A DNA stretch of 64,000 nt from Escherichia coli (lineage in GTDB: Bacteria > Pseudomonadota > Gammaproteobacteria > Enterobacterales > Enterobacteriaceae): assembly GCF_030013205.1 (NCBI RefSeq), contig NZ_CP122648.1, one strand, 5' to 3'. The notes under the pieces were generated by a model. It made no database searches, was not told the origin of the DNA, and was given only the letters and a program-made list of their open reading frames with translations. The position numbers were made by a program, and so were the translations under genes. Positions 2,746-64,000 of this stretch are shown in pieces (position 1 is the stretch's first letter; the number at the start of each line of letters is the position of its first letter).

Positions 2746-3531
2746 CTACGCGTCTTCCTGGGGAAGGATGATTTCAATTTGGCTGTCTTGTAAGCGTGAT
2801 TTTAGCGCAGCGGGCGGCAGCTCGTCGGTAAAGAGCGCAGTGACCTGTGCCACGTTACCAATTTCAACCGCCGCCGAAGCATGATACTTAGTGTGATCGG
2901 CGACCAGCAGAATATTTCTCGCGTGCGCCATCATCGTTTTCACCACGTTAGCTTCGTTAACATCAAACTCCATCAACGCGCCATCGCTCTCAATCGCCCC
3001 AACGCTTGTTACCAGATAATCAGCACGAAAATCAGCCACAAAGGACGCCGCTGAAGGGCCAATGATCCCGCTATTATGAGAGCGCAACGTACCGCCGGGC
3101 ACCATCACTTCAAAGCGCGGGTTGTGGTAAAGAATATGCGCCACACGCAGGCTGTTGGTGATTATCCGCAAATGATTGTGGTTAAGTAACGCCCGGGCAA
3201 CATGTTCAACAGTCGTACCGATGGTGATAAATATTGTCGATCCATCAGGAATATAGTCTGCCACCGCTTCGGCAATCGCTTTTTTCTCTTCAGTTTGCGA
3301 AACCTCACGCTGCTCAAACGCCGTATTAACGACGCTGGAGGCCCGACCCGCGCCACCGTGATGGCGCGTGATCAGCCCTTGCTCGCTTAATTTACGAATA
3401 TCCCGGCGGACCGTCTGCGTGGAGACATCCAGCAGATTTGCCAGCTCATCAATATTCATATACCCACGCTCGGCGATCAGCATGAGGAGTTGGTCGTGCC
3501 GCGGGTTACCGGTTAGTTCGGTAAGGCTCAT
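2746..3531 (-). CDS. yihW: DeoR-family transcriptional repressor of sulfoquinovose catabolism (CsqR)
   Basis: ORF 2746..3555 trimmed to MSLTELTGNPRHDQLLMLI...; N-terminal HTH plus DeoR C-terminal sugar-binding domain; 261 aa. Confidence 0.9.
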   Translation of the reverse strand: MSLTELTGNPRHDQLLMLIAERGYMNIDELANLLDVSTQTVRRDIRKLSEQGLITRHHGGAGRASSVVNTAFEQREVSQTEEKKAIAEAVADYIPDGSTIFITIGTTVEHVARALLNHNHLRIITNSLRVAHILYHNPRFEVMVPGGTLRSHNSGIIGPSAASFVADFRADYLVTSVGAIESDGALMEFDVNEANVVKTMMAHARNILLVADHTKYHASAAVEIGNVAQVTALFTDELPPAALKSRLQDSQIEIILPQEDA

Positions 3532-3564
3532 GAAAATTCCTCGAAAAACCATCACCCTGACATT

Positions 3565-4461
3565 TTATACAAAAAGTGACAAAAAAGATCGGGTTTGATC
3601 ACAGTCAGGGATCCCGGCTCGTCCACCGGGACGCGTGCATTTCAACGCCGCTACACCGCTGGCGAAGCGGACTGACTCCGCTAAATCCCCATCTGTTGCC
3701 AGCGCCACCGCCAATGCGCCGTGAAAAACATCACCCGCACCGGTGGTATCTACCACATCAACTTTGAAGGCCGGTTGATGTTGACGCCCGCCATTTTCCA
3801 GCCAGTCACAGCCTGCGCTGCCCTGGGTCACATAGACATGACCATTTGTGAGCGTTTGTGCCTGTTTTAGCGCACTGGCCATCTCTTTCACGCCCGTTAA
3901 GCGTGCCAGACCCGGTTCTGAAAAGGCCGCGTGATCGCTTAATGCCACCAGCTCGCTGATGTCCTGCGGCGTAATGTCCCCGTCCAGAACGGTCATCACG
4001 CCCGCCTGCCGGGCCAGAGTGAAGGCTTTTTTAGCACCGTCGTGCCAGCGTACATCTGCCAGCACAACATCCCACTGAGAGAAATCAATTTCCTCCAACC
4101 ACTCTGCGTCAGGCAGCAGGTCCGGGCTGGGGTAGTTAATGATTATCCGCTCGCCTTTGGCATCCACCATGATGGCGGATTGCGAAGATTTCGCCTGGTT
4201 ATACCGTTTGGTGTAACGGGTGTTAACGCCCCAGGATTCCAGCTCTGCCAGCAGGCTGTTGCCCGTGTCGTCATCACCTACGCGACCAATAAAATCAACC
4301 TGCGCCCCCAGCCTTGCCGCCGCAACCGCTGCCGTCGCCGCTGGCCCGCCACCAACTTCCGTATAATTTCTCGCCACGTATTTACCGCTCTCCGTCGGTA
4401 ATCCTTCCACGTAATAAATACGATCCATCACGGTAATACCTACACAAGCAACACGAATCAT
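3565..4461 (-). CDS. yihV: 6-deoxy-6-sulfofructose kinase (PfkB-family sugar kinase)
   Basis: ORF 3565..4467 trimmed to MIRVACVGITVMD; PfkB motifs (GGGPAATAAVAAARLG, DTTGAGD). Confidence 0.9.
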   Translation of the reverse strand: MIRVACVGITVMDRIYYVEGLPTESGKYVARNYTEVGGGPAATAAVAAARLGAQVDFIGRVGDDDTGNSLLAELESWGVNTRYTKRYNQAKSSQSAIMVDAKGERIIINYPSPDLLPDAEWLEEIDFSQWDVVLADVRWHDGAKKAFTLARQAGVMTVLDGDITPQDISELVALSDHAAFSEPGLARLTGVKEMASALKQAQTLTNGHVYVTQGSAGCDWLENGGRQHQPAFKVDVVDTTGAGDVFHGALAVALATDGDLAESVRFASGVAALKCTRPGGRAGIPDCDQTRSFLSLFV

Positions 4462-4628
4462 GGTCATTCCTTAAGCATTTTGGGATGCGTTCATTTTAAT
4501 TTCACCAATTGTTTAAAAAGTGACGGCTGTCAATTTTTTGACGATAACTTACAAATACGATCAAAAACAGACAAGCAAAGCATGTCATAAATGACAAAAA
4601 GTGACATTACTGTATTCAGGAGAGGGTT

Positions 4629-6442: not shown

Positions 6443-7684
6443 ATGAAATGGTTTAACACCTTAAGTCACAACCGTTGGCTGGAACAGGAAACCGACCGCA
6501 TCTTTGATTTTGGTAAAAATTCCGTAGTACCGACCGGATTTGGCTGGTTAGGCAATAAAGGGCAAATCAAAGAAGAGATGGGCACCCATCTGTGGATCAC
6601 CGCTCGTATGTTGCACGTTTATTCCGTTGCTGCGGCGATGGGTCGACCTGGCGCTTACTCGTTGGTTGATCACGGTATCAAAGCCATGAACGGCGCACTG
6701 CGCGATAAAAAATATGGCGGTTGGTATGCCTGCGTGAATGACGAGGGCGTGGTGGATGCCTCCAAACAGGGCTATCAACACTTCTTTGCTCTGCTGGGTG
6801 CTGCCAGCGCCGTCACTACCGGTCACCCGGAAGCCCGTAAACTTCTCGATTACGCCATTGAAATTATTGAGAAATACTTCTGGAGCGAAGAAGAGCAGAT
6901 GTGCCTGGAGTCCTGGGACGAAGCCTTCAGCAAAACCGAAGAGTACCGCGGCGGCAATGCCAACATGCACGCGGTGGAAGCCTTCCTGATTGTCTATGAC
7001 GTCACCCATGACAAAAAATGGCTGGATCGCGCGATTCGCGTGGCTTCCGTGATTATCCACGACGTCGCCAGAAATAATCATTATCGCGTTAACGAGCACT
7101 TCGATACCCAGTGGAATCCGCTGCCGGATTACAACAAAGATAACCCGGCGCACCGCTTCCGCGCATTCGGTGGCACGCCGGGCCACTGGATCGAATGGGG
7201 CCGTTTAATGCTGCACATCCACGCGGCCCTGGAAGCCCGTTGTGAACAGCCGCCTGCCTGGCTGCTAGAAGATGCCAAAGGTCTATTTAACGCCACCGTG
7301 CGCGATGCCTGGGCACCCGATGGCGCGGACGGGATTGTTTATACCGTTGACTGGGAAGGCAAACCGGTGGTTCGCGAACGTGTGCGTTGGCCTATCGTCG
7401 AAGCGATGGGTACGGCTTACGCGCTCTACACCGTCACCGGCGATCGCCAGTATGAAACCTGGTATCAGACATGGTGGGACTACTGCATTAAGTACCTGAT
7501 GGACTATGAAAATGGTTCCTGGTGGCAGGAGCTGGATGCGGACAATAAAGTCACCACGAAAGTCTGGGACGGCAAACAGGATATTTATCACCTGCTGCAT
7601 TGCCTGGTGATCCCGCGTATCCCGTTAGCGCCAGGCCTGGCTCCGGCGGTTGCAGCGGGCCTGCTGGACATTAACGCGAAATAA
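6443..7684 (+). CDS. yihS: Sulfoquinovose isomerase (AGE/N-acyl-glucosamine epimerase fold)
   Basis: 413-aa ORF; recognised as YihS; synteny. Confidence 0.9.
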
Positions 7685-7742
7685 CTGAGCTGAAATAACG
7701 GCATATCAGGCTACATGCCGGGTATGTCGTTATTCAATAAAG

Positions 7743-8654
7743 GTGCCTCGTATGCAAATCACCAACATGCATTGCAGTGGACAAACCGTTTCACTTGCCG
7801 CGGGGGATTATCACGCGACTATCGTGACGGTTGGTGCTGGTCTGGCTGAATTAACTTTTCAGGGTTGTCATTTAGTCATCCCACACAAACCCGAAGAGAT
7901 GCCGCTGGCGCATCTGGGTAAAGTGCTTATTCCGTGGCCGAACCGGATCGCCAACGGCTGTTATCGCTATCAGGGGCAGGACTATCAGTTACCCATTAAT
8001 GAACATAGTTCAAAAGCCGCTATTCACGGGCTGCTTGCCTGGCGTGACTGGCAAATTAGCGAATTAACCGCCACCAGCGTTACCCTGACAGCTTTTCTGC
8101 CGCCCAGTTACGGCTATCCGTTTATGCTGGCTTCACAAGTTGTTTATTCGCTCAATGCACGCACGGGTCTTTCCGTTGAGATCGCAAGCCAGAATATTGG
8201 TACTGTGACCGCACCTTATGGTGTGGGTATTCATCCTTATTTAACCTGCAACTTAACATCTGTTGATGACTATCTTTTCCAGCTTCCGGCAGAACAGGTT
8301 TATGCCGTCGATGAGCACGCAAATCCGACAACGCTTCACCACGTTGATGAGTTGGATTTAAATTTCACGCAGGCGAAAAAAATAGCCGCGACAAAAATCG
8401 ACCACACCTTTAAAACCGCTAATGATCTGTGGGAAATGACCATTACCCATCCACAGCATTTGCTTTCGGTGAGCCTCTGTTCCGATCAACCCTGGGTGCA
8501 GGTTTATAGCGGTGAAAAATTACAGCGTCAGGGACTGGCAGTTGAACCTATGAGTTGCCCGCCTGATGCGTTTAATTCCGGCACCGATTTAATATTACTG
8601 CAACCCGGAAAAACACACCGCCTGTTTTTTAATATTTACGGACAGAGAAAATAA
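7743..8654 (+). CDS. yihR: Aldose 1-epimerase family protein (sulfoquinovose mutarotase)
   Basis: 303-aa ORF from a GTG at 7743; an alternative ATG start at 7752 (MQITNMHCSG) has a better-spaced RBS. Start uncertain. Confidence 0.85.
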   Translation: MPRMQITNMHCSGQTVSLAAGDYHATIVTVGAGLAELTFQGCHLVIPHKPEEMPLAHLGKVLIPWPNRIANGCYRYQGQDYQLPINEHSSKAAIHGLLAWRDWQISELTATSVTLTAFLPPSYGYPFMLASQVVYSLNARTGLSVEIASQNIGTVTAPYGVGIHPYLTCNLTSVDDYLFQLPAEQVYAVDEHANPTTLHHVDELDLNFTQAKKIAATKIDHTFKTANDLWEMTITHPQHLLSVSLCSDQPWVQVYSGEKLQRQGLAVEPMSCPPDAFNSGTDLILLQPGKTHRLFFNIYGQRK

Positions 8655-8858
8655 CTTGTATTGATTAGCAGTCAAAATCATTGAAGAACATTTCACTCGC
8701 TAAAGGCAACGTTATGTATCATCAATTTATTAAGTTAAAAACAGCTCAGCTTCTTTAAAGTTTATATATATCAGTTTTATGAGAATCATTTTACATAAGC
8801 CTGTAATAACAATAACAGGAAGGAAACAACCTCGTTCTCAACTCTATGGAGATTATTT

Positions 8859-10895
8859 ATGGATACGCCACGCCCACAGTTATTAGATTTTCAATTTCAT
8901 CAGAATAACGACAGTCTTACCCTACGTTTTCAGGGCCGTCTTATTTTAACCCATAGTAAAGATAATCCTTGTTTATGGATTGGCTCAGGTATAGCGGATA
9001 TCGATATGTTCCGCGGTAATTTCAGCATTAAAGATAAATTGCAGGAGAAGATTGCGCTCACCGACGCTACCGTCAGCCAGTCACCGGATGGCTGGTTAAT
9101 CCATTTCAGCCGTGGTTCTGACATTAGCGCCACGCTGCGTATCTCTGCCGACGAACAGGGCCGTTTATTGCTGGAACTACAAAACGACAACCTTAACCAC
9201 AACCGTATCTGGCTGCGCCTTGCCGCTCAACCAGAGGACCATATCTACGGCTGCGGTGAACAATTCTCCTACTTTGATCTGCGCGGCAAACCGTTCCCGC
9301 TATGGACCAGTGAACAAGGCGTTGGTCGCAACAAGCAAACCTATGTCACCTGGCAGGCCGACTGCAAAGAGAACGCGGGCGGCGACTATTACTGGACTTT
9401 CTTCCCACAGCCTACGTTTGTCAGCACGCAGAAGTATTACTGCCATGTTGATAACAGTTGCTACATGAACTTCGACTTTAGCGCCCCGGAATACCATGAA
9501 CTGGCGCTGTGGGAAGACAAAGCAACGCTGCGTTTTGAATGTGCTGATACATACATCTCCCTGCTGGAAAAATTAACTGCCCTGCTGGGACGCCAGCCAG
9601 AACTGCCCGACTGGATTTATGACGGGGTAACGCTCGGCATTCAGGGCGGGACGGAAGTGTGTCAGAAGAAACTGGACACCATGCGTAACGCGGGTGTGAA
9701 GGTTAACGGCATCTGGGCGCAGGACTGGTCCGGGATCCGTATGACCTCTTTTGGCAAACGCGTAATGTGGAACTGGAAGTGGAACAGCGAAAACTATCCG
9801 CAACTGGACTCACGTATTAAGCAGTGGAACAAAGAGGGCGTGCAGTTCCTGGCCTATATCAACCCGTATGTAGCCAGCGATAAAGATCTCTGCGAAGAGG
9901 CGGCAAAGCGCGGTTATCTGGCAAAAGATGCCTCTGGCGGCGACTATCTGGTGGAGTTTGGCGAGTTCTATGGCGGCGTTGTCGATCTCACCAATCCAGA
10001 AGCCTACGCCTGGTTCAAGGAAGTGATCAAAAAGAACATGATTGAACTTGGCTGCGGCGGCTGGATGGCTGACTTCGGCGAGTATCTGCCCACCGACACG
10101 TACCTGCATAACGGCGTCAGCGCGGAAATTATGCATAACGCCTGGCCCGCGCTGTGGGCGAAATGTAACTACGAAGCCCTTGAAGAAACGGGCAAGCTCG
10201 GCGAGATCCTCTTCTTTATGCGCGCCGGTTCTACCGGTAGCCAGAAATACTCCACCATGATGTGGGCGGGCGACCAGAACGTCGACTGGAGTCTCGACGA
10301 TGGCCTGGCGTCGGTTGTCCCGGCGGCGCTGTCGCTGGCAATGACCGGACATGGCCTGCATCACAGCGACATTGGCGGTTACACCACCCTGTTTGAGATG
10401 AAGCGCAGCAAAGAGCTGCTGCTGCGCTGGTGCGATTTCAGCGCCTTCACGCCGATGATGCGCACCCACGAAGGTAACCGTCCTGGCGACAACTGGCAGT
10501 TTGACGGCGACGCGGAAACCATCGCCCATTTCGCCCGTATGACCACCGTCTTCACCACCCTGAAACCTTATCTGAAAGAGGCCGTCGCGCTGAATGCGAA
10601 GTCCGGTCTGCCGGTCATGCGCCCGCTGTTCCTGCATTACGAAGACGATGCGCACACTTACACCCTGAAATATCAGTACCTGTTAGGTCGCGACATTCTG
10701 GTCGCTCCGGTGCATGAAGAAGGCCGTAGCGACTGGACGCTCTATCTGCCGGAGGATAACTGGGTTCACGTCTGGACGGGTGAAGCGTTCCGGGGCGGGG
10801 AAGTTACCGTTAATGCGCCCATCGGCAAGCCGCCGGTCTTTTATCGCGCCGATAGCGAATGGGCGGCACTGTTCGCGTCGTTAAAAAGCATCTAA
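8859..10895 (+). CDS. yihQ: Sulfoquinovosidase (glycoside hydrolase family 31)
   Basis: 678-aa ORF; GH31-like; preceded by a 204-bp AT-rich intergenic region. Confidence 0.9.
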   Translation: MDTPRPQLLDFQFHQNNDSLTLRFQGRLILTHSKDNPCLWIGSGIADIDMFRGNFSIKDKLQEKIALTDATVSQSPDGWLIHFSRGSDISATLRISADEQGRLLLELQNDNLNHNRIWLRLAAQPEDHIYGCGEQFSYFDLRGKPFPLWTSEQGVGRNKQTYVTWQADCKENAGGDYYWTFFPQPTFVSTQKYYCHVDNSCYMNFDFSAPEYHELALWEDKATLRFECADTYISLLEKLTALLGRQPELPDWIYDGVTLGIQGGTEVCQKKLDTMRNAGVKVNGIWAQDWSGIRMTSFGKRVMWNWKWNSENYPQLDSRIKQWNKEGVQFLAYINPYVASDKDLCEEAAKRGYLAKDASGGDYLVEFGEFYGGVVDLTNPEAYAWFKEVIKKNMIELGCGGWMADFGEYLPTDTYLHNGVSAEIMHNAWPALWAKCNYEALEETGKLGEILFFMRAGSTGSQKYSTMMWAGDQNVDWSLDDGLASVVPAALSLAMTGHGLHHSDIGGYTTLFEMKRSKELLLRWCDFSAFTPMMRTHEGNRPGDNWQFDGDAETIAHFARMTTVFTTLKPYLKEAVALNAKSGLPVMRPLFLHYEDDAHTYTLKYQYLLGRDILVAPVHEEGRSDWTLYLPEDNWVHVWTGEAFRGGEVTVNAPIGKPPVFYRADSEWAALFASLKSI

Positions 10896-15334: not shown

Positions 15335-16600
15335 TTAAGCTTCAGCCGCCAGCATCTCTTTCTTACGTTGGCTAATACGCTTAACCAGCATTACGGAAAC
15401 CACCGCACCACAGAATGCGAAGCAGGCCATAATGCCAAACACGATTTTGTAGCCAATAATCCCCGGATTTAAATCCAGAATGTAGCCATACAGACTGAAG
15501 CAGAACATCGCCGGGGCGTAACCAATAAAGCTACCCAACGCCATCGCCGCGCCTGTTTTATTTTCAGCAATTTTTGCTTCGCCGATAGGTGCAAAAAATA
15601 CGGCTCGCTGTGTAAAGACTATCGCGCCAAAGCCCAGCGTACATGCCATCCCTAAATATACCGGCATACTTTCGTGCGGCAGCATAATCAACAGTACGAG
15701 CGCAGCGGTACTGATGATAAAGGTGTAGCATAGATATTTACTCGGCGATTTCAGGATCTTATCTGAAATCATGCCACCAATCGGTCCACCAATCATTTTC
15801 AGACAGTATTGGTTAATGATGCCGTAAGCCCCCACCAGCGCAACGGGCAATAGATAGATGTTTTTCAGGAATGGAATGAAGAATGTCAGGCCACAGTAAA
15901 CCGCGTAAACGAAGAAGACGTTGAAAGCGATAAGCCAGATAGTTTTGTCTTTCAGCACCGAGGTCATACTGGTGTTTTTCGATGCTCCGTCTTCTTTTTT
16001 CACCTCAACGGACGGTGCCTCTTCTTTGTCATTCAGAACAAAGAAAATGATAATGCCTACGGCAATCACAATAAGGGAATAGAACCAGATGCCTGCTTTA
16101 AAACCCAATAAGCCACTGCCAAACCAGGTAAATACTGCCAACGCAGAAAATGCCACCACGGTATCGACAATGCCACGCCCTGTTTCGAAGAAGCCAAACA
16201 ACCGACCTTGTTGTTCGCTATTGCCCAATCGACTTACCGACTTGAGCAAGACCGGCCAGTTCATCATGTCGCAAGTAACGCCAAATAGCGCCCAGACAAA
16301 GAGGATGCCCCAATACCCCGGCATTGTCGTCAAATAAACACCCAGTAATCCTGTCGCAATGAGTGAGAATGACATGGTGTATCTGCGCGGTAGTTTATCG
16401 GCAAAATAAATAGACAGAAAAAAGCCCACTGTCGTGACAAATGAGTTTACCGACATAGCATTACCAATTTGACCATTGGTCAAATGGAAATATTCCTGCA
16501 TCGGGATATAAAACGCATCTTTCAGCGACGGTAATTTATAAATTGTACCGCCACACAATGTTAATAGACTAAATAACGCCCATTTCTTTTTCGTGAGCAT
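15335..16600 (-). CDS. yihN: MFS transporter
   Basis: 421-aa ORF, polytopic hydrophobic; synteny with yihM/yihL. Confidence 0.9.
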   Translation of the reverse strand: MLTKKKWALFSLLTLCGGTIYKLPSLKDAFYIPMQEYFHLTNGQIGNAMSVNSFVTTVGFFLSIYFADKLPRRYTMSFSLIATGLLGVYLTTMPGYWGILFVWALFGVTCDMMNWPVLLKSVSRLGNSEQQGRLFGFFETGRGIVDTVVAFSALAVFTWFGSGLLGFKAGIWFYSLIVIAVGIIIFFVLNDKEEAPSVEVKKEDGASKNTSMTSVLKDKTIWLIAFNVFFVYAVYCGLTFFIPFLKNIYLLPVALVGAYGIINQYCLKMIGGPIGGMISDKILKSPSKYLCYTFIISTAALVLLIMLPHESMPVYLGMACTLGFGAIVFTQRAVFFAPIGEAKIAENKTGAAMALGSFIGYAPAMFCFSLYGYILDLNPGIIGYKIVFGIMACFAFCGAVVSVMLVKRISQRKKEMLAAEA

Positions 16601-16701
16601 AACATCCCCTAAGCGATTTTTAAAATCACTGTTTTAAAGGCAATAAGATACCGACCATTCATATCGAATGGTTTTATTAACTGCGTATGAGTTAAAACTT
16701 A

Positions 16702-17682
16702 TTAGTGGTTCAGAAGATGGTTTGCCTCTTGTTTGATTTGTTGTAGTACGTTACGCACATGATTTATCTGATTAATTGCATCTTCTTTTTCTTTACGTAA
16801 CCGCGCATCCAGTAAATGATTTTCTGGCAATGGTGTTTCACTCATCTGGCGATAAGGGATCCACGGATTATCATCTTCGTCTTCAAAGCGGAACGCCGGC
16901 GCATAGTAATCAACCTCTTCTTCCAGGCCATATGCCGTCACCTGCGGCTCATCATCACCCAGGCATATAAGGTGCGTTAATAACGCTTTGAACGGCATAT
17001 CACCCTGACCTGAAATACAGGCTTTATGACCCAGGCCACCCTCTTCTTTAACGATCAAGGCATCTTTGATATGGACCTGGGTAATATGCGGTGCCATCGT
17101 TTTTAAAGCGTCGATGGGATGCTCATTTGCATTGATCATGTTCGCAAAATCAAACAGTAAGGAAAGAGATTCCATCTCACTTTCTTTGACCAGCGACACC
17201 AGCTCATGGCTTTTTAAATCTTCATGCTGTTCGATCGTAAAAGTCAGGCCGCTGTCCTGATACGTTTCCCGTACATAGGCAATGTCGTTAGCGATGATCG
17301 ATAATACGTCGCGCAAATTACCTTCATAACGTGGATAAAAACGTACGGACGATGCCCCAGTTTTCAACGCAATGGCGACGGCTTCGTCAATAGATGCCTT
17401 ATCTGAAGCGCTGGTTTCAATATGAATATCAAGGTTCAGACGGCGGGCTTTATCCCCAAAGGCAGAGAGTTCTTTATCGTCCATATTACCAAGAGAAAAA
17501 CGCTCGCCATCCAGAACATGGATTTTGACGCCACGTAGATTATTTTCACTTGCGATATCAAGTAAATCAGCAGGCAACACTCTTTCCAGCCGCATATTTA
17601 AATGAAAGGCATAAGCATGTAAATAAAGAGGAAGAGTGTCGACACGTTGTAGAATCTTTCTTGCGTTATTTATTGTCACCAT
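16702..17682 (-). CDS. yihM: Sugar phosphate isomerase/epimerase (xylose-isomerase-like TIM barrel)
   Basis: 326-aa ORF; recognised as YihM. Confidence 0.88.
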   Translation of the reverse strand: MVTINNARKILQRVDTLPLYLHAYAFHLNMRLERVLPADLLDIASENNLRGVKIHVLDGERFSLGNMDDKELSAFGDKARRLNLDIHIETSASDKASIDEAVAIALKTGASSVRFYPRYEGNLRDVLSIIANDIAYVRETYQDSGLTFTIEQHEDLKSHELVSLVKESEMESLSLLFDFANMINANEHPIDALKTMAPHITQVHIKDALIVKEEGGLGHKACISGQGDMPFKALLTHLICLGDDEPQVTAYGLEEEVDYYAPAFRFEDEDDNPWIPYRQMSETPLPENHLLDARLRKEKEDAINQINHVRNVLQQIKQEANHLLNH

Positions 17683-31730: not shown

Positions 31731-32093
31731 AATGTCCGTGCCTGTTTATCAGATTATGGGTAAAGGATGCCACAGACAGGATGAAAACATGAGTTTTTCA
31801 CCGCTTTTCGTGAAAATCTTTTGTAGATCTTCTGGATCGCTCGCAAATCGTCATGTGGATAACTTTGTGCATAAATTATTTACATCGCTTTTAATTTATT
31901 ATCATGCTTTTTACAGCATGATGTTTGTCTTTGTTTTTCATGAAGTTAAAAATAAGACCATCCCTAGTAATTGAGATAATGGGATTTTTTCTAATGTGGA
32001 TAGATATGAATTATTTTTCTCCTTAAGGATCATCCGTTATTTGGGTCGTTTTCTGCTAAAATCTGCGCCTTGCGCTTCTTTAGCGCACTGTCT

Positions 32094-33026
32094 ATGGCTA
32101 ACTTTTTGAATAAATTCATTATGACGAGAATACTCGCTGCGATAACCCTTTTGCTGAGTATCGTATTGACCATTTTGGTCACTATTTTTTGCTCCGTCCC
32201 GATCATCATTGCCGGGATTGTAAAACTATTGCTTCCTGTGCCAGTCATTTGGCGAAAGGTTTCGCGTTTTTGTGATTTTATGATGTATTGCTGGTGCGAA
32301 GGTCTGGCGGTATTACTGCATCTGAACCCACACCTGCAATGGGAAGTTCACGGGCTGGAAGGGTTAAGTAAGAAGAACTGGTATCTGCTTATTTGTAACC
32401 ACCGTAGTTGGGCAGATATTGTCGTACTGTGCGTGCTGTTTCGTAAGCACATTCCGATGAATAAATATTTCCTCAAGCAGCAGCTGGCCTGGGTGCCTTT
32501 TCTTGGCCTGGCGTGCTGGGCGCTGGATATGCCGTTTATGAAGCGTTATTCCCGCGCTTATTTATTACGTCATCCGGAGCGACGTGGTAAAGATGTCGAA
32601 ACCACTCGGCGTTCTTGTGAAAAGTTTCGCCTGCATCCCACCACCATTGTCAATTTCGTTGAAGGCTCCCGTTTCACGCAAGAAAAACATCTGCAAACCC
32701 ACTCCACTTTTCAAAACTTGTTGCCACCAAAGGCGGCAGGCATTGCGATGGCGCTAAATGTACTGGGTAAACAATTCGATAAACTGCTTAATGTTACGCT
32801 GTGTTATCCGGACAATAACCGTCAGCCGTTCTTCGATATGTTAAGCGGTAAACTGACGCGAATTGTCGTACATGTGGATTTGCAGCCTATTTCCGATGAG
32901 TTACATGGCGACTACATCAATGACAAAAGCTTTAAGCGCCATTTTCAGCAATGGCTGAACTCACTGTGGCAGGAAAAAGACCGACTTCTGACGTCGTTGA
33001 TGTCATCACAGCGTCAGAATAAGTAA
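32094..33026 (+). CDS. yihG: PlsC-family acyltransferase YihG
   Basis: ORF 32070..33026 trimmed to [17 protein letters not shown]; acyltransferase H(X4)D motif region (NHRSWADIV); 310 aa. Confidence 0.88.
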
Positions 33027-33066: not shown

Positions 33067-34497
33067 TTAATGAACAAAACGTCCGGCACGAGACATAAAT
33101 TCTTCTTCGCTCATTTCCTGTCCGTTAAAAACAACTTTACCCGGTGTATAACGCAGTTGCAGCGAGGCGGTATTGTTGTCAATCGTGATTAACTGAAACA
33201 TCTGACCTAATGTCATCATCCCGCTGATTTGTTTATCAGCCCGCTTTTGCGCTTTTTCAGCATCCATTCCTTCAGATAAATTAAGCTGTTTTGCGGTTTC
33301 TGTGACGACATTAAGCGGTAACTTCACATCAAAATTGAGCGATTTAATATCTTTGTTTGTGGATGATGAGGATTTGGCTGGGTCGGCAATACTGATATCC
33401 AGATTGGCATTTAGTTCGCCGAGTGCATTCTTCCATCTTACCGGTTGTTTAATGGTCGGCTCACTTTTTTGTAATAACGGTAAATACTCTTTGAACAATG
33501 CAGCATTCACTTCTTGCAGAGCAACTTCATCGTTTGCTAACTCAGGGTGTGCAGCAAGCTGCTTCTGCATCGCAATGTTATACTGGATGATAAATTGGCG
33601 CACCGCTGAAGGATCAATAGATTCAGCAATCAATGACCACTCACCACTACCGAGTTGCTGATTCCCTTTTGTTAACTTATCAAGTTCGTAGGTCAGATTG
33701 ACATTGATATAATCTTTGTCTTTAACGCGATCCAGCCTGGTTTTTGCAACGAAAGCATCGATTTGGGCAACGTCTTCCCCGTGATTGATAATGTTAATCT
33801 GATTAAATTTCGACTCGCTTTCACCAACCGGAAATTTCTTTTCTTCTAATCGCGCCAGAGAATCAATGGTAAAACTTTTTGCCGTTACTTTGTTCATTGG
33901 TGATAATTGCAGAACAATATCTTCGACTTTGCCTTCAATATCCAGGTTAGACAATGAACTACCATCACCATTAAAAGTAAACTGGCCCTCACCAAAAGAA
34001 AACTTTCCATACTCTGCAGGGGCAACATCTAATGTCGTAGAGAATGAGCCACCAAACGCGAATCGCAATGTCGCTTCCACGGGCGATTTATTTTTCGCGG
34101 CGATAAATAGCGGTTGTGTCAGTTCATTATTCACTAAGTTCACTTTTGCCGCTGCCAGTGCGGGGATGACATTACCACGCATTAACATTGTGATGGGCAA
34201 CGGACCGTGCTCAACATCCACATCAAATGCAACTTTCTGGCCTGGCTTGATATTGAGATCGGGTGCACCGTTATCAAATGTTATTTGCATTTGAAAATGA
34301 GAATTAAAAAAGCCTTTGTCAAAGTTTTTATAACTTAACGTCATATCGTAGGCATGTTCACCTTTCTTTTTAGCATCGTTAAAATCTTTAATGAACTTTT
34401 CGACACCAGGCTGAATTTGCGTACCTGTGTACCATGTGCCACCACCCCAGATTACGGCAAACGCAACAATAACACCTGTAGCTGACTTACGTATCAT
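33067..34497 (-). CDS. yihF: DUF945-family secreted/periplasmic protein YihF
   Basis: ORF 33067..34539 trimmed to MIRKSATGVIVAFAVIWGGG (signal-anchor-like); about 476 aa. Confidence 0.85.
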   Translation of the reverse strand: MIRKSATGVIVAFAVIWGGGTWYTGTQIQPGVEKFIKDFNDAKKKGEHAYDMTLSYKNFDKGFFNSHFQMQITFDNGAPDLNIKPGQKVAFDVDVEHGPLPITMLMRGNVIPALAAAKVNLVNNELTQPLFIAAKNKSPVEATLRFAFGGSFSTTLDVAPAEYGKFSFGEGQFTFNGDGSSLSNLDIEGKVEDIVLQLSPMNKVTAKSFTIDSLARLEEKKFPVGESESKFNQINIINHGEDVAQIDAFVAKTRLDRVKDKDYINVNLTYELDKLTKGNQQLGSGEWSLIAESIDPSAVRQFIIQYNIAMQKQLAAHPELANDEVALQEVNAALFKEYLPLLQKSEPTIKQPVRWKNALGELNANLDISIADPAKSSSSTNKDIKSLNFDVKLPLNVVTETAKQLNLSEGMDAEKAQKRADKQISGMMTLGQMFQLITIDNNTASLQLRYTPGKVVFNGQEMSEEEFMSRAGRFVH

Positions 34498-34595
34498 ATA
34501 AATATTCCCTGATAAAACAGCAAAACTTTGAATATCCACTTATGCTGAAATAATGTCCAGCGGCAGGATGCATTATCAGAATGTATTTATATTTA

Positions 34596-34630
34596 TAAAA
34601 TAATAAAAAAAGCCCGTGAATATTCACGGG
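34596..34630 (-). terminator. Intrinsic terminator of dsbA
   Basis: Minus-strand hairpin agcccgtgaatattcacgggct followed by a U-run, 3' of the dsbA stop. Confidence 0.6.
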
Positions 34631-34651
34631 CTTTATGTAATTTACATTGAA

Positions 34652-35278
34652 TTATTTTTTCTCGGACAGATATTTCACTGTATCAGCATACTGCTGAACA
34701 AAAACATCCATATTGCTGGTATCCATACCCTGCGGATTCAGCTGATATTTACCGTTAACAAACATCGCCGGAACACCACGCAATTGCACGTCAGCTGCAG
34801 CTTTTTCCTGCTGAGCGACCAGAGATTTCACCACGAAGCTGTTCCACGCCGCGTCGTACTCTTCACCTTTAATACCTGCGTTGATAAATACATCGCGGAT
34901 ATCAGATGCTGAACGAATAGTCTGGGTTTTCTGTACGCCTTCAAACAGCGGAACAGTCACTTTGTCTTCCACGCCCAGCGCCATCGCCACAGCCCATGCC
35001 TGAGTCAGATCTTTGCCCAGATCACCACCCATGAAGTTGACGTGGTATTTAGTCATCTTCACGCCTTCCGGCAGTTTTTTCTTCACGTTATCAGAAATAT
35101 GCAGAACTTCTTCAAACTGATAGCAGTGCGGGCAGAAGAAAGAGAAAAACTCCAGCACTTGCGGCGCGCCAGCTACCGGTTTTTCCAGGGTAGTGTACTG
35201 TTTACCATCTTCATACTGCGCCGCCGATGCGCTAAACGCTAAAACTAAACCAGCCAGCGCCAGCCAAATCTTTTTCAT
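34652..35278 (-). CDS. dsbA: Periplasmic thiol:disulfide oxidoreductase DsbA
   Basis: 208-aa [38 protein letters not shown]...; active site CPHC. Confidence 0.97.
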
Positions 35279-62980: not shown

Positions 62981-63371
62981 TTTCCTCTTAGTCTATATTT
63001 GAGATGGTGAGTGAACGAGTGCGTTTTGCTGCCATCTCTGTCCCCCAAAAAATAATCAGTATGAATTGATTGGAGAGCACGACTCCGCTATTTGACCTTA
63101 AGAAAGTCGGCAAGTAATAGTCATAAGTGAGTCTCTTCACTGGCAGACACCTTAGAGATTTACCATCAACTCCCATTCTCAAACAAACATTAATTATTAT
63201 CAACACATTCACATTAATTATAAATTATCTCAGACCTTCCTGATAAAAAGATATTAAAGTGAAACATTTTGTTTTTCACATTTTAGTTCATCCCTTTTAG
63301 GCGTAAATAAAGGTAAAAAATAACAATACTATTTTTCTTTCACAAAAGAATTAACAAAAGGTTTTTCAAGG

Positions 63372-64000
63372 ATGAGTGATATTATTTACCTGAACATAAC
63401 CGGAGAACAACAAGGATGTATTTCCTCTCGTTGTGGAACGAGCGCATCAATAGGTAATCGCTGGCAGATTGGCCATGAAGATGAAATCTTCGCGTTCTCG
63501 CTCTCTAATAGTATTACGAATACAGGCAAAGGGTCACAATTGCATGGCCTTAGTTTCTGTAAATTGATTGACAAAAGCTCCCCGTTACTTATTAACGCTA
63601 TTAACAATAACGAGCAGTTGTTCATGGAGTTTGACTTCTATCGGATCAATAGATTTGGTCGATGGGAGAAATATTACAACATTCAACTTCGCGGCGCGCT
63701 CTTATCAGCAATCAATCACCTGTTTACTGAGAACAATCTGGATACAGAAACCATCACTGTCAGTTATGAATATATACTCTCCAGGCATCTGATTGCTAAT
63801 ACTGAATTTAGTTATTTGGCATTTCCCGATAACTACAACCGTCTGTTTATACCACGGCCAAAAACTAAAGATGATAATGGCCTCAAAACACTCAATAGTA
63901 AAGCGGTTGGCAGACTGCTTGCTGCTGGCGGCATATACAATGGGAATATCGAAGGATTCAGGGAAACAGCAAACAAGTTGGGAGGAGATGCACCTGCTGG
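63372..64000 (+). CDS. Hcp-like (type VI secretion tube protein family) ORF with C-terminal extension; 3' end beyond the window
   Basis: ATG at 63372, open to the window end (at least 209 codons, checked codon by codon). N-terminus MSDIIYLNITGEQQGCISSRCGTSASIGNRWQIGHEDE... and internal LSFCKLIDKSSPLLINAINNNEQLFMEFDFYRINRFGRWEKYY match Hcp hallmarks (GHEDE, KxIDKSSPxL, FxFYRIN). An Hcp domain is normally complete by about 150-160 aa; this ORF continues (…IPRPKTKDDNGLKTLNSKAVGRLLAAGGIYNGNIEGFRETANKLGGDAPA…). Low-GC relative to flanking core genes. Not in the ORF track because no stop lies in the window. Confidence 0.7.
   Translation, partial: MSDIIYLNITGEQQGCISSRCGTSASIGNRWQIGHEDEIFAFSLSNSITNTGKGSQLHGLSFCKLIDKSSPLLINAINNNEQLFMEFDFYRINRFGRWEKYYNIQLRGALLSAINHLFTENNLDTETITVSYEYILSRHLIANTEFSYLAFPDNYNRLFIPRPKTKDDNGLKTLNSKAVGRLLAAGGIYNGNIEGFRETANKLGGDAPA

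What the first reader, a model, noticed from the sequence alone, without database searches (positions are those of the whole stretch)
8655..8858. Unusually AT-rich 204-bp spacer inside the SQ cluster between yihR and yihQ
Most gene junctions in the cluster are tight, but yihR-yihQ is separated by a long, very AT-rich spacer containing tatata-like elements. This suggests an internal promoter for yihQPO and possibly nucleoid-protein binding.
Basis: seen in the sequence. Interest (0 to 1): 0.2.

Follow-up and report, generated by a model that had tools for sequence, protein, structure and literature searches.

The report
Scar of a lost sulfonate-exporter gene
The long AT-rich gap between yihR and yihQ is real, but it is best explained as the leftover flanking DNA of a TauE-type permease gene that about half of sequenced E. 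coli (including K-12) have lost from the sulfoquinovose cluster; whether it also holds a promoter for yihQ is still unproven.

Summary
Observation confirmed. Window 8655-8858 is a 204-bp non-coding gap between yihR and yihQ with 30% G+C. It is three or more times longer than any other junction in the cluster, and only 0.4% of 204-bp windows in the 64 kb have as low a G+C.

Origin. In 1288 of 5426 complete E. coli genomes, and in every close outgroup examined (Salmonella, Citrobacter farmeri, Superficieibacter, and an unnamed lineage whose YihR is 84% identical), an 876-bp TauE/SafE permease gene lies exactly here. In 2514 genomes, including K-12 and this window, it is missing. The 204 bp can be divided completely into relics:
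- two decayed copies of the yihR-tauE intergenic region, each carrying the first ~6 tauE codons (relic ATGs at 8714 and 8779);
- the conserved yihQ-proximal 63 bp of the tauE-yihQ intergenic region.

The AT-richness is inherited from those intergenic regions (25-36% G+C).

Promoter reading: only partly supported. No sigma-70 match exceeds chance, and the 'tatata' run lacks the key -10 positions. CsqR and RNA polymerase in-vitro screens report no site here. There is no terminator either. Published K-12 RNA-seq shows read density rising 2.2-fold from yihR to yihQ on sulfoquinovose and near zero on glucose, which is compatible with a weak inducible start. H-NS binding could not be tested.

Low interest: an ordinary gene-loss scar with a modest new detail.

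The parts
7743..8654 (+). yihR (sulfoquinovose mutarotase / aldose-1-epimerase), upstream gene
   Evidence: ORF. Pfam PF01263, E=1.9e-59. RefSeq annotation of the identical strain.
8655..8858 (+). The 204-bp AT-rich spacer, here read as the scar left by loss of a TauE/SafE permease gene
   Evidence: G+C 0.299, 0.4th percentile of 204-bp windows. The same position holds an 876-bp tauE gene in O157:H7 and 1287 other complete E. coli genomes and in Salmonella, C. farmeri, Superficieibacter and an unnamed lineage with 84%-identical YihR.
8655..8735 (+). Relic unit U1: decayed copy of the yihR-tauE intergenic region plus about 20 nt of the tauE 5' end. It has a Shine-Dalgarno-like AAGG at 8703-8706 and a relic start codon at 8714-8716, which opens a 14-codon ORF (MYHQFIKLKTAQLL*) ending at 8758.
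   Evidence: Colinear with the stop-IGR-RBS-ATG-codons 2-7 stretch of all tauE+ relatives in alignment A3. Global alignment z = 2.3-3.2, with 5-21 of 1000 dinucleotide shuffles reaching the score against Superficieibacter, O157, the 84% lineage and Salmonella. Local alignment: 3/500 against Superficieibacter and 9/500 against the 84% lineage.
8726..8795 (+). Relic unit U2: second decayed copy of the same unit (O157-type yihR-tauE intergenic region plus tauE codons 1 to about 7). The relic ATG is at 8779-8781 and its ribosome-binding site is lost. U2 contains the 'tatata' run at 8763-8771.
   Evidence: Global alignment to the O157 unit scores 18.5 against a null of 1.2 +/- 3.5 (z = 4.9, 0/1000 shuffles). 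Local alignment: at most 1/500.
8796..8858 (+). Part C: the retained yihQ-proximal part of the ancestral tauE-yihQ intergenic region. It holds the yihQ Shine-Dalgarno GGAG at 8848-8851 and a conserved upstream block.
   Evidence: Significant local alignments to the tauE-yihQ intergenic region of O157 and the 84% lineage (0/200), Salmonella (1/200) and C. farmeri (3/200). Multiple alignment A2.
8800..8819 (.). Palindrome CCTGT..ACAGG. It reads CCTGTAATAACAGG in K-12 and O157 and CCTGTAACAACAGG in the 84% lineage. In this window's haplotype it is split by a tandem 6-bp duplication, AATAAC x2, at 8805-8816.
   Evidence: Pairwise alignment with a K-12-like strain. Alignment A2. Its function is unknown.
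8859..10895 (+). yihQ (sulfoquinovosidase), downstream gene
   Evidence: ORF. Annotation.

Best explanation
The spacer is a gene-loss scar. The ancestral order in the Escherichia/Salmonella type of sulfo-EMP cluster was yihS-yihR-tauE-yihQ, where tauE encodes a TauE/SafE (TSUP-family) permease.

In one E. coli lineage the tauE body was removed, from about codon 7 to about 45 bp past its stop. That haplotype is now found in about 46% of complete genomes, including K-12 and this window. What remains is only AT-rich flanking DNA:
- two decayed tandem copies of the unit 'yihR-tauE intergenic region plus first ~6 tauE codons' (8655-8735 and 8726-8795);
- the yihQ-proximal 63 bp of the tauE-yihQ intergenic region (8796-8858).

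This accounts for both the length and the 30% G+C.

Functional inference. The spacer is transcribed as part of a sulfoquinovose-induced mRNA that reads through from the CsqR-controlled yihU promoter and the yihS/R promoter, because no terminator lies in the way. The last 63 bp supply the yihQ translation-initiation region. An additional weak, sulfoquinovose-dependent start in or near the spacer is possible (I put it at about 35-40%) and would explain the roughly 2-fold higher yihQ read density.

Shown: the presence/absence polymorphism, the polarity of the change, and the homology of the pieces. Inferred: the order of events (duplication, then deletion) and the mode of transcription.
For: Polymorphism. 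2514 of 5426 complete E. coli genomes carry the gene-less spacer at full length. 1288 of 5426 carry yihR-tauE-yihQ at full length (annotated loci). The gene is an intact 291-aa PF01925 TauE protein (E=8e-35).

Polarity. All the nearest YihR relatives have tauE between yihR and yihQ:
- the lineage with 84%-identical YihR, L089/L090;
- Salmonella enterica, L091;
- Citrobacter farmeri, L092;
- Superficieibacter, L032, whose TauE is 86% identical, in line with the neighbouring genes.

Pieces.
- U2 against the O157 unit: z=4.9, 0/1000.
- U1 against four relatives: 5-21/1000, with RBS, ATG and first codons aligned column for column (A3).
- Part C against the tauE-yihQ intergenic regions: 0-3/200 (A2).
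- The three pieces tile the 204 bp with a 10-bp overlap at the U1/U2 boundary, which contains the shared TTTATT at 8726-8731.

Single event. All gene-less genomes share one junction, covering the full query at 90-100% identity.

Composition. The intergenic regions flanking tauE in tauE+ strains are 25-36% G+C, whereas tauE itself is 49%.

Read-through. There is no terminator-like site on the + strand in the spacer, the RNA fold is no more stable than shuffles (z=+0.89), and there is no Rfam match. All long-cassette genes on both sides of the gap are induced on sulfoquinovose and are near zero on glucose (PMC12608037, Table S3).
Against: - U1 and U2 are not significantly alike (z=1.0), so a simple recent tandem duplication is not demonstrated. 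Either old divergence or illegitimate recombination between two different alleles has to be assumed.
- The U1 matches are only moderately significant, and the four comparisons are not independent of one another.
- No internal tauE coding remnant is detectable (tblastn best E=0.5), so the 'relic' status rests on the flanks and about 20 nt of the 5' end.
- The RNA-seq step-up from yihR to yihQ (2.2-fold, a few hundred reads) fits an internal start better than pure read-through, although differential mRNA stability could also give it.
Confidence: 0.8

Rival explanations
1. One reading: the spacer exists as a regulatory region. It carries an internal promoter that drives yihQPO-ompL independently of yihU, and its AT-richness recruits H-NS or other nucleoid proteins. 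This is compatible with the scar origin. The rivalry is over what the DNA does now.
For: - PlatProm predicted a promoter for yihQ, and qRT-PCR suggested that yihR and yihQ respond differently from yihS/T to carbon sources (PMC5816610).
- Read density rises 2.2-fold from yihR to yihQ on sulfoquinovose.
- A CRP-like core, TGAGA-N6-TTACA (8 of 10 positions), lies at 8780-8795.
- The 63 bp next to yihQ are conserved out to Salmonella.
- 30% G+C is in the range H-NS prefers (general knowledge).
Against: - No + strand sigma-70 site passes the consensus scan.
- The best PWM score is no better than shuffles (49% reach it) and has G at -10 position 2.
- The TATATATAT run contains no TAnnnT hexamer (read directly from the sequence).
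- yihQ gave only 3 and 1 reads on glucose, so there is no constitutive activity.
- CsqR SELEX found only the yihU/V spacer. No word sharing with the yihU/V operator region exceeds chance.
- RNA polymerase SELEX tables list yihS/R but not yihR/Q.
- No H-NS data could be found.
Confidence: 0.35
2. Reverse polarity: the 204-bp spacer is the ancestral empty site, and tauE was inserted into it in the O157-type lineages.
For: - tauE is a movable member of these clusters. It lies after yihQ in Kluyvera, Pantoea stewartii, C. freundii M-21 and strain RIT691, and is absent in Klebsiella spallanzanii and the C. youngae group.
- No internal tauE coding remnant is present in the spacer.
Against: - Every lineage whose YihR is closest to E. 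coli's (68-84% identity) has tauE at this exact site.
- TauE divergence matches that of its neighbours (86% identity in Superficieibacter, against 85% for YihQ and 84% for YihP).
- The spacer contains relic copies of the tauE ribosome-binding site, start codon and first codons. An empty site would not have these.
- In taxa without tauE at this site the junction upstream of yihQ is only 25-60 bp.
Confidence: 0.05
3. The spacer encodes something of its own: a small protein or leader peptide (the 14-codon ORF at 8714-8758 with a well-spaced AAGG, or the 35-codon ORF at 8779-8886), or a structured RNA element.
For: The 14-codon ORF keeps a Shine-Dalgarno-like AAGG 7 nt upstream of its ATG. It stays open in K-12 with one amino-acid change and one synonymous change.
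Against: - Both ATGs align with the tauE start codon of relatives, so they are inherited relics.
- No Pfam hit and no Rfam hit even at E<=1.
- The RNA fold is no more stable than shuffles.
- The ATG at 8779 has lost its ribosome-binding site (alignment).
Confidence: 0.05

Closest known systems
Gene-deletion scars / relic intergenic DNA in bacterial operons (presence/absence polymorphism of an accessory operon gene)
   Same: The orthologous site is occupied by an intact gene in conspecific strains and outgroups. Both flanks of the gap are homologous to the gene's two intergenic regions. A short 5' remnant of the gene, including its start codon, survives. All gene-less genomes share a single junction.
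   Different: The scar holds two decayed copies of the upstream flank rather than one, so the event was not a single clean deletion. None of the papers on the yih cluster that I could search or read mentions it. Kaznadzey et al. 2025 (PMC12608037) describe only 'long' and 'short' cassettes, and my term searches of it returned no passage about a tauE gene (that paper was not searched for the word 'TauE' itself). The 2026 review PMC12890257 does not mention TauE at all.
TauE/SafE (TSUP family, PF01925) permeases co-encoded with sulfoglycolysis genes, such as SftE of the sulfo-TAL clusters and the TauE of Arthrobacter sulfo-EMP clusters
   Same: The missing gene is a PF01925 protein sitting inside a sulfoquinovose cluster. 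This is the context in which such permeases are predicted to export sulfolactate or DHPS (PMC7491151, PMC8873060).
   Different: No substrate has been shown for the enterobacterial protein. In K-12, DHPS export is ascribed to the MFS protein YihP (annotation; PMC12890257).
Internal operon promoters in long intergenic gaps of catabolic operons
   Same: A long AT-rich gap in front of a downstream gene block, with higher mRNA density downstream than upstream.
   Different: No promoter-like match exceeds chance, no mapped start site was found, and no regulator is known to bind here.

Membership tests
Gene-loss scar (relic of tauE) | The orthologous position is occupied by an intact gene in conspecifics | tested here: met
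   An 876-bp PF01925 gene lies between yihR and yihQ in 1288 of 5426 complete E. coli genomes.
Gene-loss scar (relic of tauE) | Outgroups show that the gene-present state is ancestral | tested here: met
   Salmonella, C. farmeri, Superficieibacter and the lineage with 84%-identical YihR all have yihR-tauE-yihQ.
Gene-loss scar (relic of tauE) | The gap is homologous to both flanks of the gene | tested here: met
   Left flank: U2 z=4.9 (0/1000) and U1 5-21/1000. Right flank: 0-3/200.
Gene-loss scar (relic of tauE) | Residual coding sequence of the lost gene | tested here: inconclusive
   Only the start codon and about 6 codons align. There is no internal TauE similarity (tblastn best E=0.5).
Sigma-70 promoter | -35 and -10 hexamers with 16-18 bp spacing, with A at -10 position 2 and T at position 6, matching better than chance | tested here: not met
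   No + strand site was found. The best PWM hit is equalled in 49% of shuffles and has G at position 2.
Sigma-70 promoter | A mapped primary 5' end, or RNA polymerase binding | not testable with these tools
   Start-site tables were not held. RNA polymerase SELEX tables list yihS/R only. The RNA-seq step-up of 2.2-fold is indirect evidence.
H-NS / nucleoid-protein bound region | An AT-rich tract of 100 bp or more | tested here: met
   30% G+C over 204 bp.
H-NS / nucleoid-protein bound region | ChIP occupancy, or derepression in an hns mutant | not testable with these tools
   No usable data were found in the library.
CsqR (DeoR-family) operator | Binding by CsqR, or a sequence shared with the yihU/V operator region | tested here: not met
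   Genomic SELEX gave a single peak, at yihU/V (PMC8249747). Shared words with the yihU/V spacer are at or below chance.
Intrinsic terminator / structured RNA element | A G+C-rich hairpin followed by a T-run, or an Rfam family match | tested here: not met
   No terminator-like site on the + strand in the spacer. Fold z=+0.89. No Rfam hit at E<=1.
Repeated extragenic element (REP/BIME/IS remnant) | Several copies per genome | tested here: not met
   The median is one place per genome and the maximum is two.

The most novel reading that the evidence does not exclude
The tauE presence/absence polymorphism is functionally meaningful. tauE+ strains (O157:H7, Salmonella and about a quarter of E. coli) would export a sulfonate end product (DHPS, sulfolactate) or sulfite through TauE. 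The tauE- strains, K-12 included, would have rewired both export (to YihP) and yihQPO-ompL expression, because the deletion fused relic upstream DNA to the conserved yihQ-proximal region. That fusion would have created a new, sulfoquinovose-responsive hybrid promoter or an upstream ORF. If so, K-12, the model for sulfoglycolysis, would be a derived variant and not representative of the pathway in enteric pathogens.
Probability: 0.15. Interest if true: 0.45.

Novelty: new member of a known kind. Interest (0 to 1): 0.2.

Why it matters
The practical consequences are modest.

1. The length and AT-richness of this K-12 intergenic region should not be taken as evidence of regulation, because they are inherited from a lost gene's flanks.

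2. The textbook ten-gene sulfo-EMP cluster of K-12 is a derived form. The ancestral Escherichia/Salmonella cluster has an eleventh gene, a TauE-type permease, still present in O157:H7 and about a quarter of complete E. coli genomes. The E. coli sulfoquinovose papers I could read do not discuss it. This bears on which protein exports DHPS.

3. The relic layout shows where a yihQ promoter could sit (the conserved 63 bp plus relic U2), which is useful for designing reporter fusions.

Tried and rejected
- **Consensus promoter and terminator scans of the spacer and my own PWM scan with shuffles.** Nothing exceeded chance on the + strand.
- **RNA folding and Rfam at E<=1.** No structure and no family match.
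- **Small ORFs against Pfam.** No hits.
- **TauE protein against the spacer by permissive tblastn.** No coding remnant.
- **Search for CsqR-operator-like words shared with the yihU/V spacer, and for CRP cores.** Word sharing was at or below chance. There is one 8/10 CRP-like core at 8780-8795 and another at 8802-8817; the second depends on the 6-bp duplication specific to this haplotype. Neither was pursued, because 8/10 cores are common in AT-rich DNA.
- **Self-alignment of the two relic units.** Not significant, so a recent tandem duplication is not claimed.
- **Aligning the 26-nt stretch 8770-8795 on its own to the tauE 5' end.** Not significant. It becomes significant only as part of the full U2 unit.
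- **First MAFFT alignment of whole intervals.** It forced the spacer onto tauE coding sequence. I replaced it with region-restricted alignments.
- **Literature supplements for start sites and H-NS ChIP.** Cappable-seq supplements held no matching coordinates. Thomason 2015 is not held. No supplementary text is held for Conway 2014 or Kahramanoglou 2011.
- **Hairpins just after tauE in tauE+ relatives.** These were seen by eye. They do not qualify as intrinsic terminators because they lack a T-run, so no operon boundary is claimed there.

Full report
**1. Observation**

Window 8655-8858 lies between the stop codon of yihR (ORF 7743-8654) and the ATG of yihQ (8859). The region is 100% identical to E. 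coli strain 118UI. That strain's RefSeq annotation gives csqR-yihV on one strand and yihU-yihT-yihS-yihR-yihQ-yihP-yihO-ompL on the other.

The gap is 204 bp with G+C 0.299, against 0.508 for the whole window. Only 0.4% of 204-bp windows in the 64 kb are as AT-rich. The other junctions of the cluster are 12-58 bp by longest ORF, or 15-67 bp as annotated.

**2. What occupies this position elsewhere**

A megablast of the spacer with 100 bp of each flank against 5426 complete E. coli genomes gave three classes:
- 2514 genomes with the whole query;
- about 1400 that match only the yihQ end;
- about 1500 with nothing. I infer, but did not check, that these are mostly the 'short cassette' strains of PMC12608037.

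In the second class (O157:H7 and others) an annotated 876-bp 'sulfite exporter TauE/SafE family protein' gene lies between yihR and yihQ. It is an intact PF01925 protein (E=8e-35). The yihR-tauE-yihQ interval is present at full length in 1288 of 5426 genomes. Those copies are 94-100% identical to one another, so the haplotype is old. The gene-less genomes all share one junction. The K-12 spacer differs from this window's by seven substitutions and a 6-bp indel.

**3. Polarity**

A scan of one genome per species with YihQ as query shows that tauE is an optional, movable member of enterobacterial sulfo-EMP clusters:
- between yihR and yihQ in Superficieibacter;
- after yihQ in Kluyvera, Pantoea stewartii, C. 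freundii M-21 and strain RIT691;
- absent in Klebsiella spallanzanii and the C. youngae group;
- yihR itself is absent in Enterobacter, Leclercia, Pectobacterium and Rahnella.

In all those other taxa the junction upstream of yihQ is short, with about 25-60 bp of non-coding DNA.

The lineages whose YihR is closest to E. coli's were fetched through a protein search and context look-ups. They are an unnamed lineage with 84% identity, Salmonella enterica (69-71%), Citrobacter farmeri (72%) and Superficieibacter (71%). All have yihS-yihR-tauE-yihQ.

TauE is about as diverged as its neighbours: 86% in Superficieibacter, against 85% for YihQ and 84% for YihP. The gene-present state is therefore ancestral, and the K-12-type spacer is derived by loss.

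**4. Anatomy of the 204 bp**

*Part C (8796-8858).* It aligns with the yihQ-proximal part of the tauE-yihQ intergenic region of every tauE+ relative: 0/200 shuffles reach the score for O157 and the 84% lineage, 1/200 for Salmonella and 3/200 for C. farmeri (alignment A2). It contains:
- the yihQ Shine-Dalgarno sequence (GGAG, 8848-8851);
- a block conserved out to Salmonella;
- an Escherichia-specific palindrome, CCTGTAATAACAGG. In this window's haplotype it is split by a tandem AATAAC duplication at 8805-8816.

*Unit U2 (8726-8795).* It aligns end to end with the O157 unit 'yihR-tauE intergenic region plus first 21 nt of tauE'. The global score is 18.5 against 1.2 +/- 3.5 for dinucleotide shuffles (z=4.9, 0/1000). 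The ATG at 8779 falls on the tauE start codon, and the ribosome-binding site has been lost.

*Unit U1 (8655-8735).* It aligns colinearly with the same unit in Superficieibacter (5/1000), O157 and the 84% lineage (15/1000 each) and Salmonella (21/1000) (local alignments 3/500 and 9/500; alignment A3). A Shine-Dalgarno-like AAGG (8703-8706) lies 7 nt before the ATG at 8714. The following TCATCAATTTATT matches tauE codons 3-7.

*Overall.* The three pieces tile the spacer, with a 10-bp overlap between U1 and U2 that includes a shared TTTATT. U1 and U2 are not significantly similar to each other (z=1.0), so the duplication is either old or arose by recombination between divergent alleles. I leave the order of events open. 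No internal TauE coding similarity remains.

The intergenic regions flanking tauE in tauE+ genomes are 25-36% G+C, while tauE is 49%. The AT-richness of the spacer is therefore simply that of its source DNA. The 'tatata' run (8763-8771) lies in U2, where O157 has GTTGTATTTACACA.

**5. Does it hold a promoter?**

Sequence:
- The consensus scan finds no + strand sigma-70 site and no terminator in the spacer.
- My PWM scan's best + strand candidate is ATGAGA (8779) - 17 bp - TGTAAT (8802). It is matched by 49% of shuffles and has G at the critical second -10 position.
- By inspection, the only + strand TAnnnT hexamers are TATCAT (8717), TAAGTT and TAAAGT. None lies in the 'tatata' run.

RNA:
- The fold is no more stable than shuffles and there is no Rfam match.

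Regulators:
- CsqR genomic SELEX gave one target, the yihU/V spacer (PMC8249747).
- The yihU/V spacer is rich in TGTCA/TGACA repeats that the yihR/Q spacer lacks, and shared words are at or below chance.
- RNA polymerase holoenzyme SELEX lists peaks in the yihS/R spacer for three minor sigma factors. No yih gene name occurs in the main text of the RpoD paper.
- Kaznadzey et al. [quoted passage not shown] They report no experiment on yihR/Q.

Expression (PMC12608037, Table S3). Raw counts for K-12 on sulfoquinovose, converted by me to reads per kb:

| gene | reads/kb |
|---|---|
| yihU | 192 |
| yihT | 336 |
| yihS | 467 |
| yihR | 156 |
| yihQ | 338 |
| yihP | 150 |
| yihO | 113 |
| ompL | 27 |

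On glucose all are near zero (0-8 reads per gene). There is thus no constitutive promoter. Both sides of the gap are induced together. Density rises 2.2-fold across the gap, which fits either a weak inducible start or differing mRNA stability.

I put the chance of a real start site in or near the spacer at about 35-40%. H-NS binding could not be assessed.

**6. Comparison with what is known**

The feature belongs to a familiar kind: the scar of an accessory gene lost from an operon. TauE-type (TSUP) permeases are known companions of sulfoglycolysis clusters and are predicted to export sulfolactate or DHPS (PMC7491151, PMC8873060).

The papers on the E. coli yih cluster that I could search describe ten genes, and 'long' and 'short' cassettes. 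My searches of them turned up no mention of a tauE-bearing variant or of this origin for the spacer. RefSeq annotation does show the gene. The specific point is therefore apparently undescribed, but unsurprising.

**7. Verdict**

- The regulatory interpretation is only partly supported.
- The best explanation for the length and composition is gene loss (confidence about 0.8).
- Interest is low (0.2). The feature is a new instance of a known kind.

Noticed in passing
window 7685-7742 (yihS-yihR junction); K-12 locus L086, reverse strand, between yihS and yihR: K-12 carries an extra insert of about 70 bp in the yihS-yihR junction that is absent from this window and from O157. It is G+C-rich and palindromic (gggttttcccctctccctaaccctctccccaaaggggcgaggggacc...). 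Window-to-K-12 identity drops to 0.55 over 7651-7800. It looks like a dispersed repeat element. It coincides with the yihS/R spacer where RNA polymerase SELEX peaks and band shifts were reported.
   Followed up: partly
L003 (E. coli DETEC-P61), positions 3019-3925: In this tauE+ strain an IS1A element truncates yihQ after about 21 codons. The rest of the cluster is missing: yihL follows directly.
   Followed up: no
L006-L009, L018, L020, L025, L027 (Klebsiella spallanzanii, Citrobacter spp., Pectobacterium), about 20-45 bp upstream of yihQ: A conserved motif, ATTACCGAATTACCCTAyaTTTACGGAGAC, with a repeated TTACC, lies just upstream of the yihQ ribosome-binding site in several genera. Kluyvera and Pantoea have a related CTTACCCTACAAC. 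E. coli lacks it. It could be an operator or a leader element.
   Followed up: no
window 4468-4628 (yihV/yihU divergent spacer): This spacer has 33.5% G+C and several TGTCA/TGACA inverted repeats (TGTCAATTTTTTGACG at 4528, TGTCATAAATGACA at 4583, GTGAC at 4520 and 4601). These are likely the CsqR operator repeats.
   Followed up: no
window 63078-63470, 31751-32124, 34447-34775, 16587-16823: These are the four other AT-rich troughs in the window, each with G+C of 0.33 or less over 204 bp. The deepest reaches 0.23, at 63185-63388.
   Followed up: no
window 8633-8642 and 8854-8863: A 10-nt direct repeat, TATTTACGGA / TATTTATGGA, brackets the spacer at the end of yihR and the start of yihQ. It is probably chance.
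   Followed up: no
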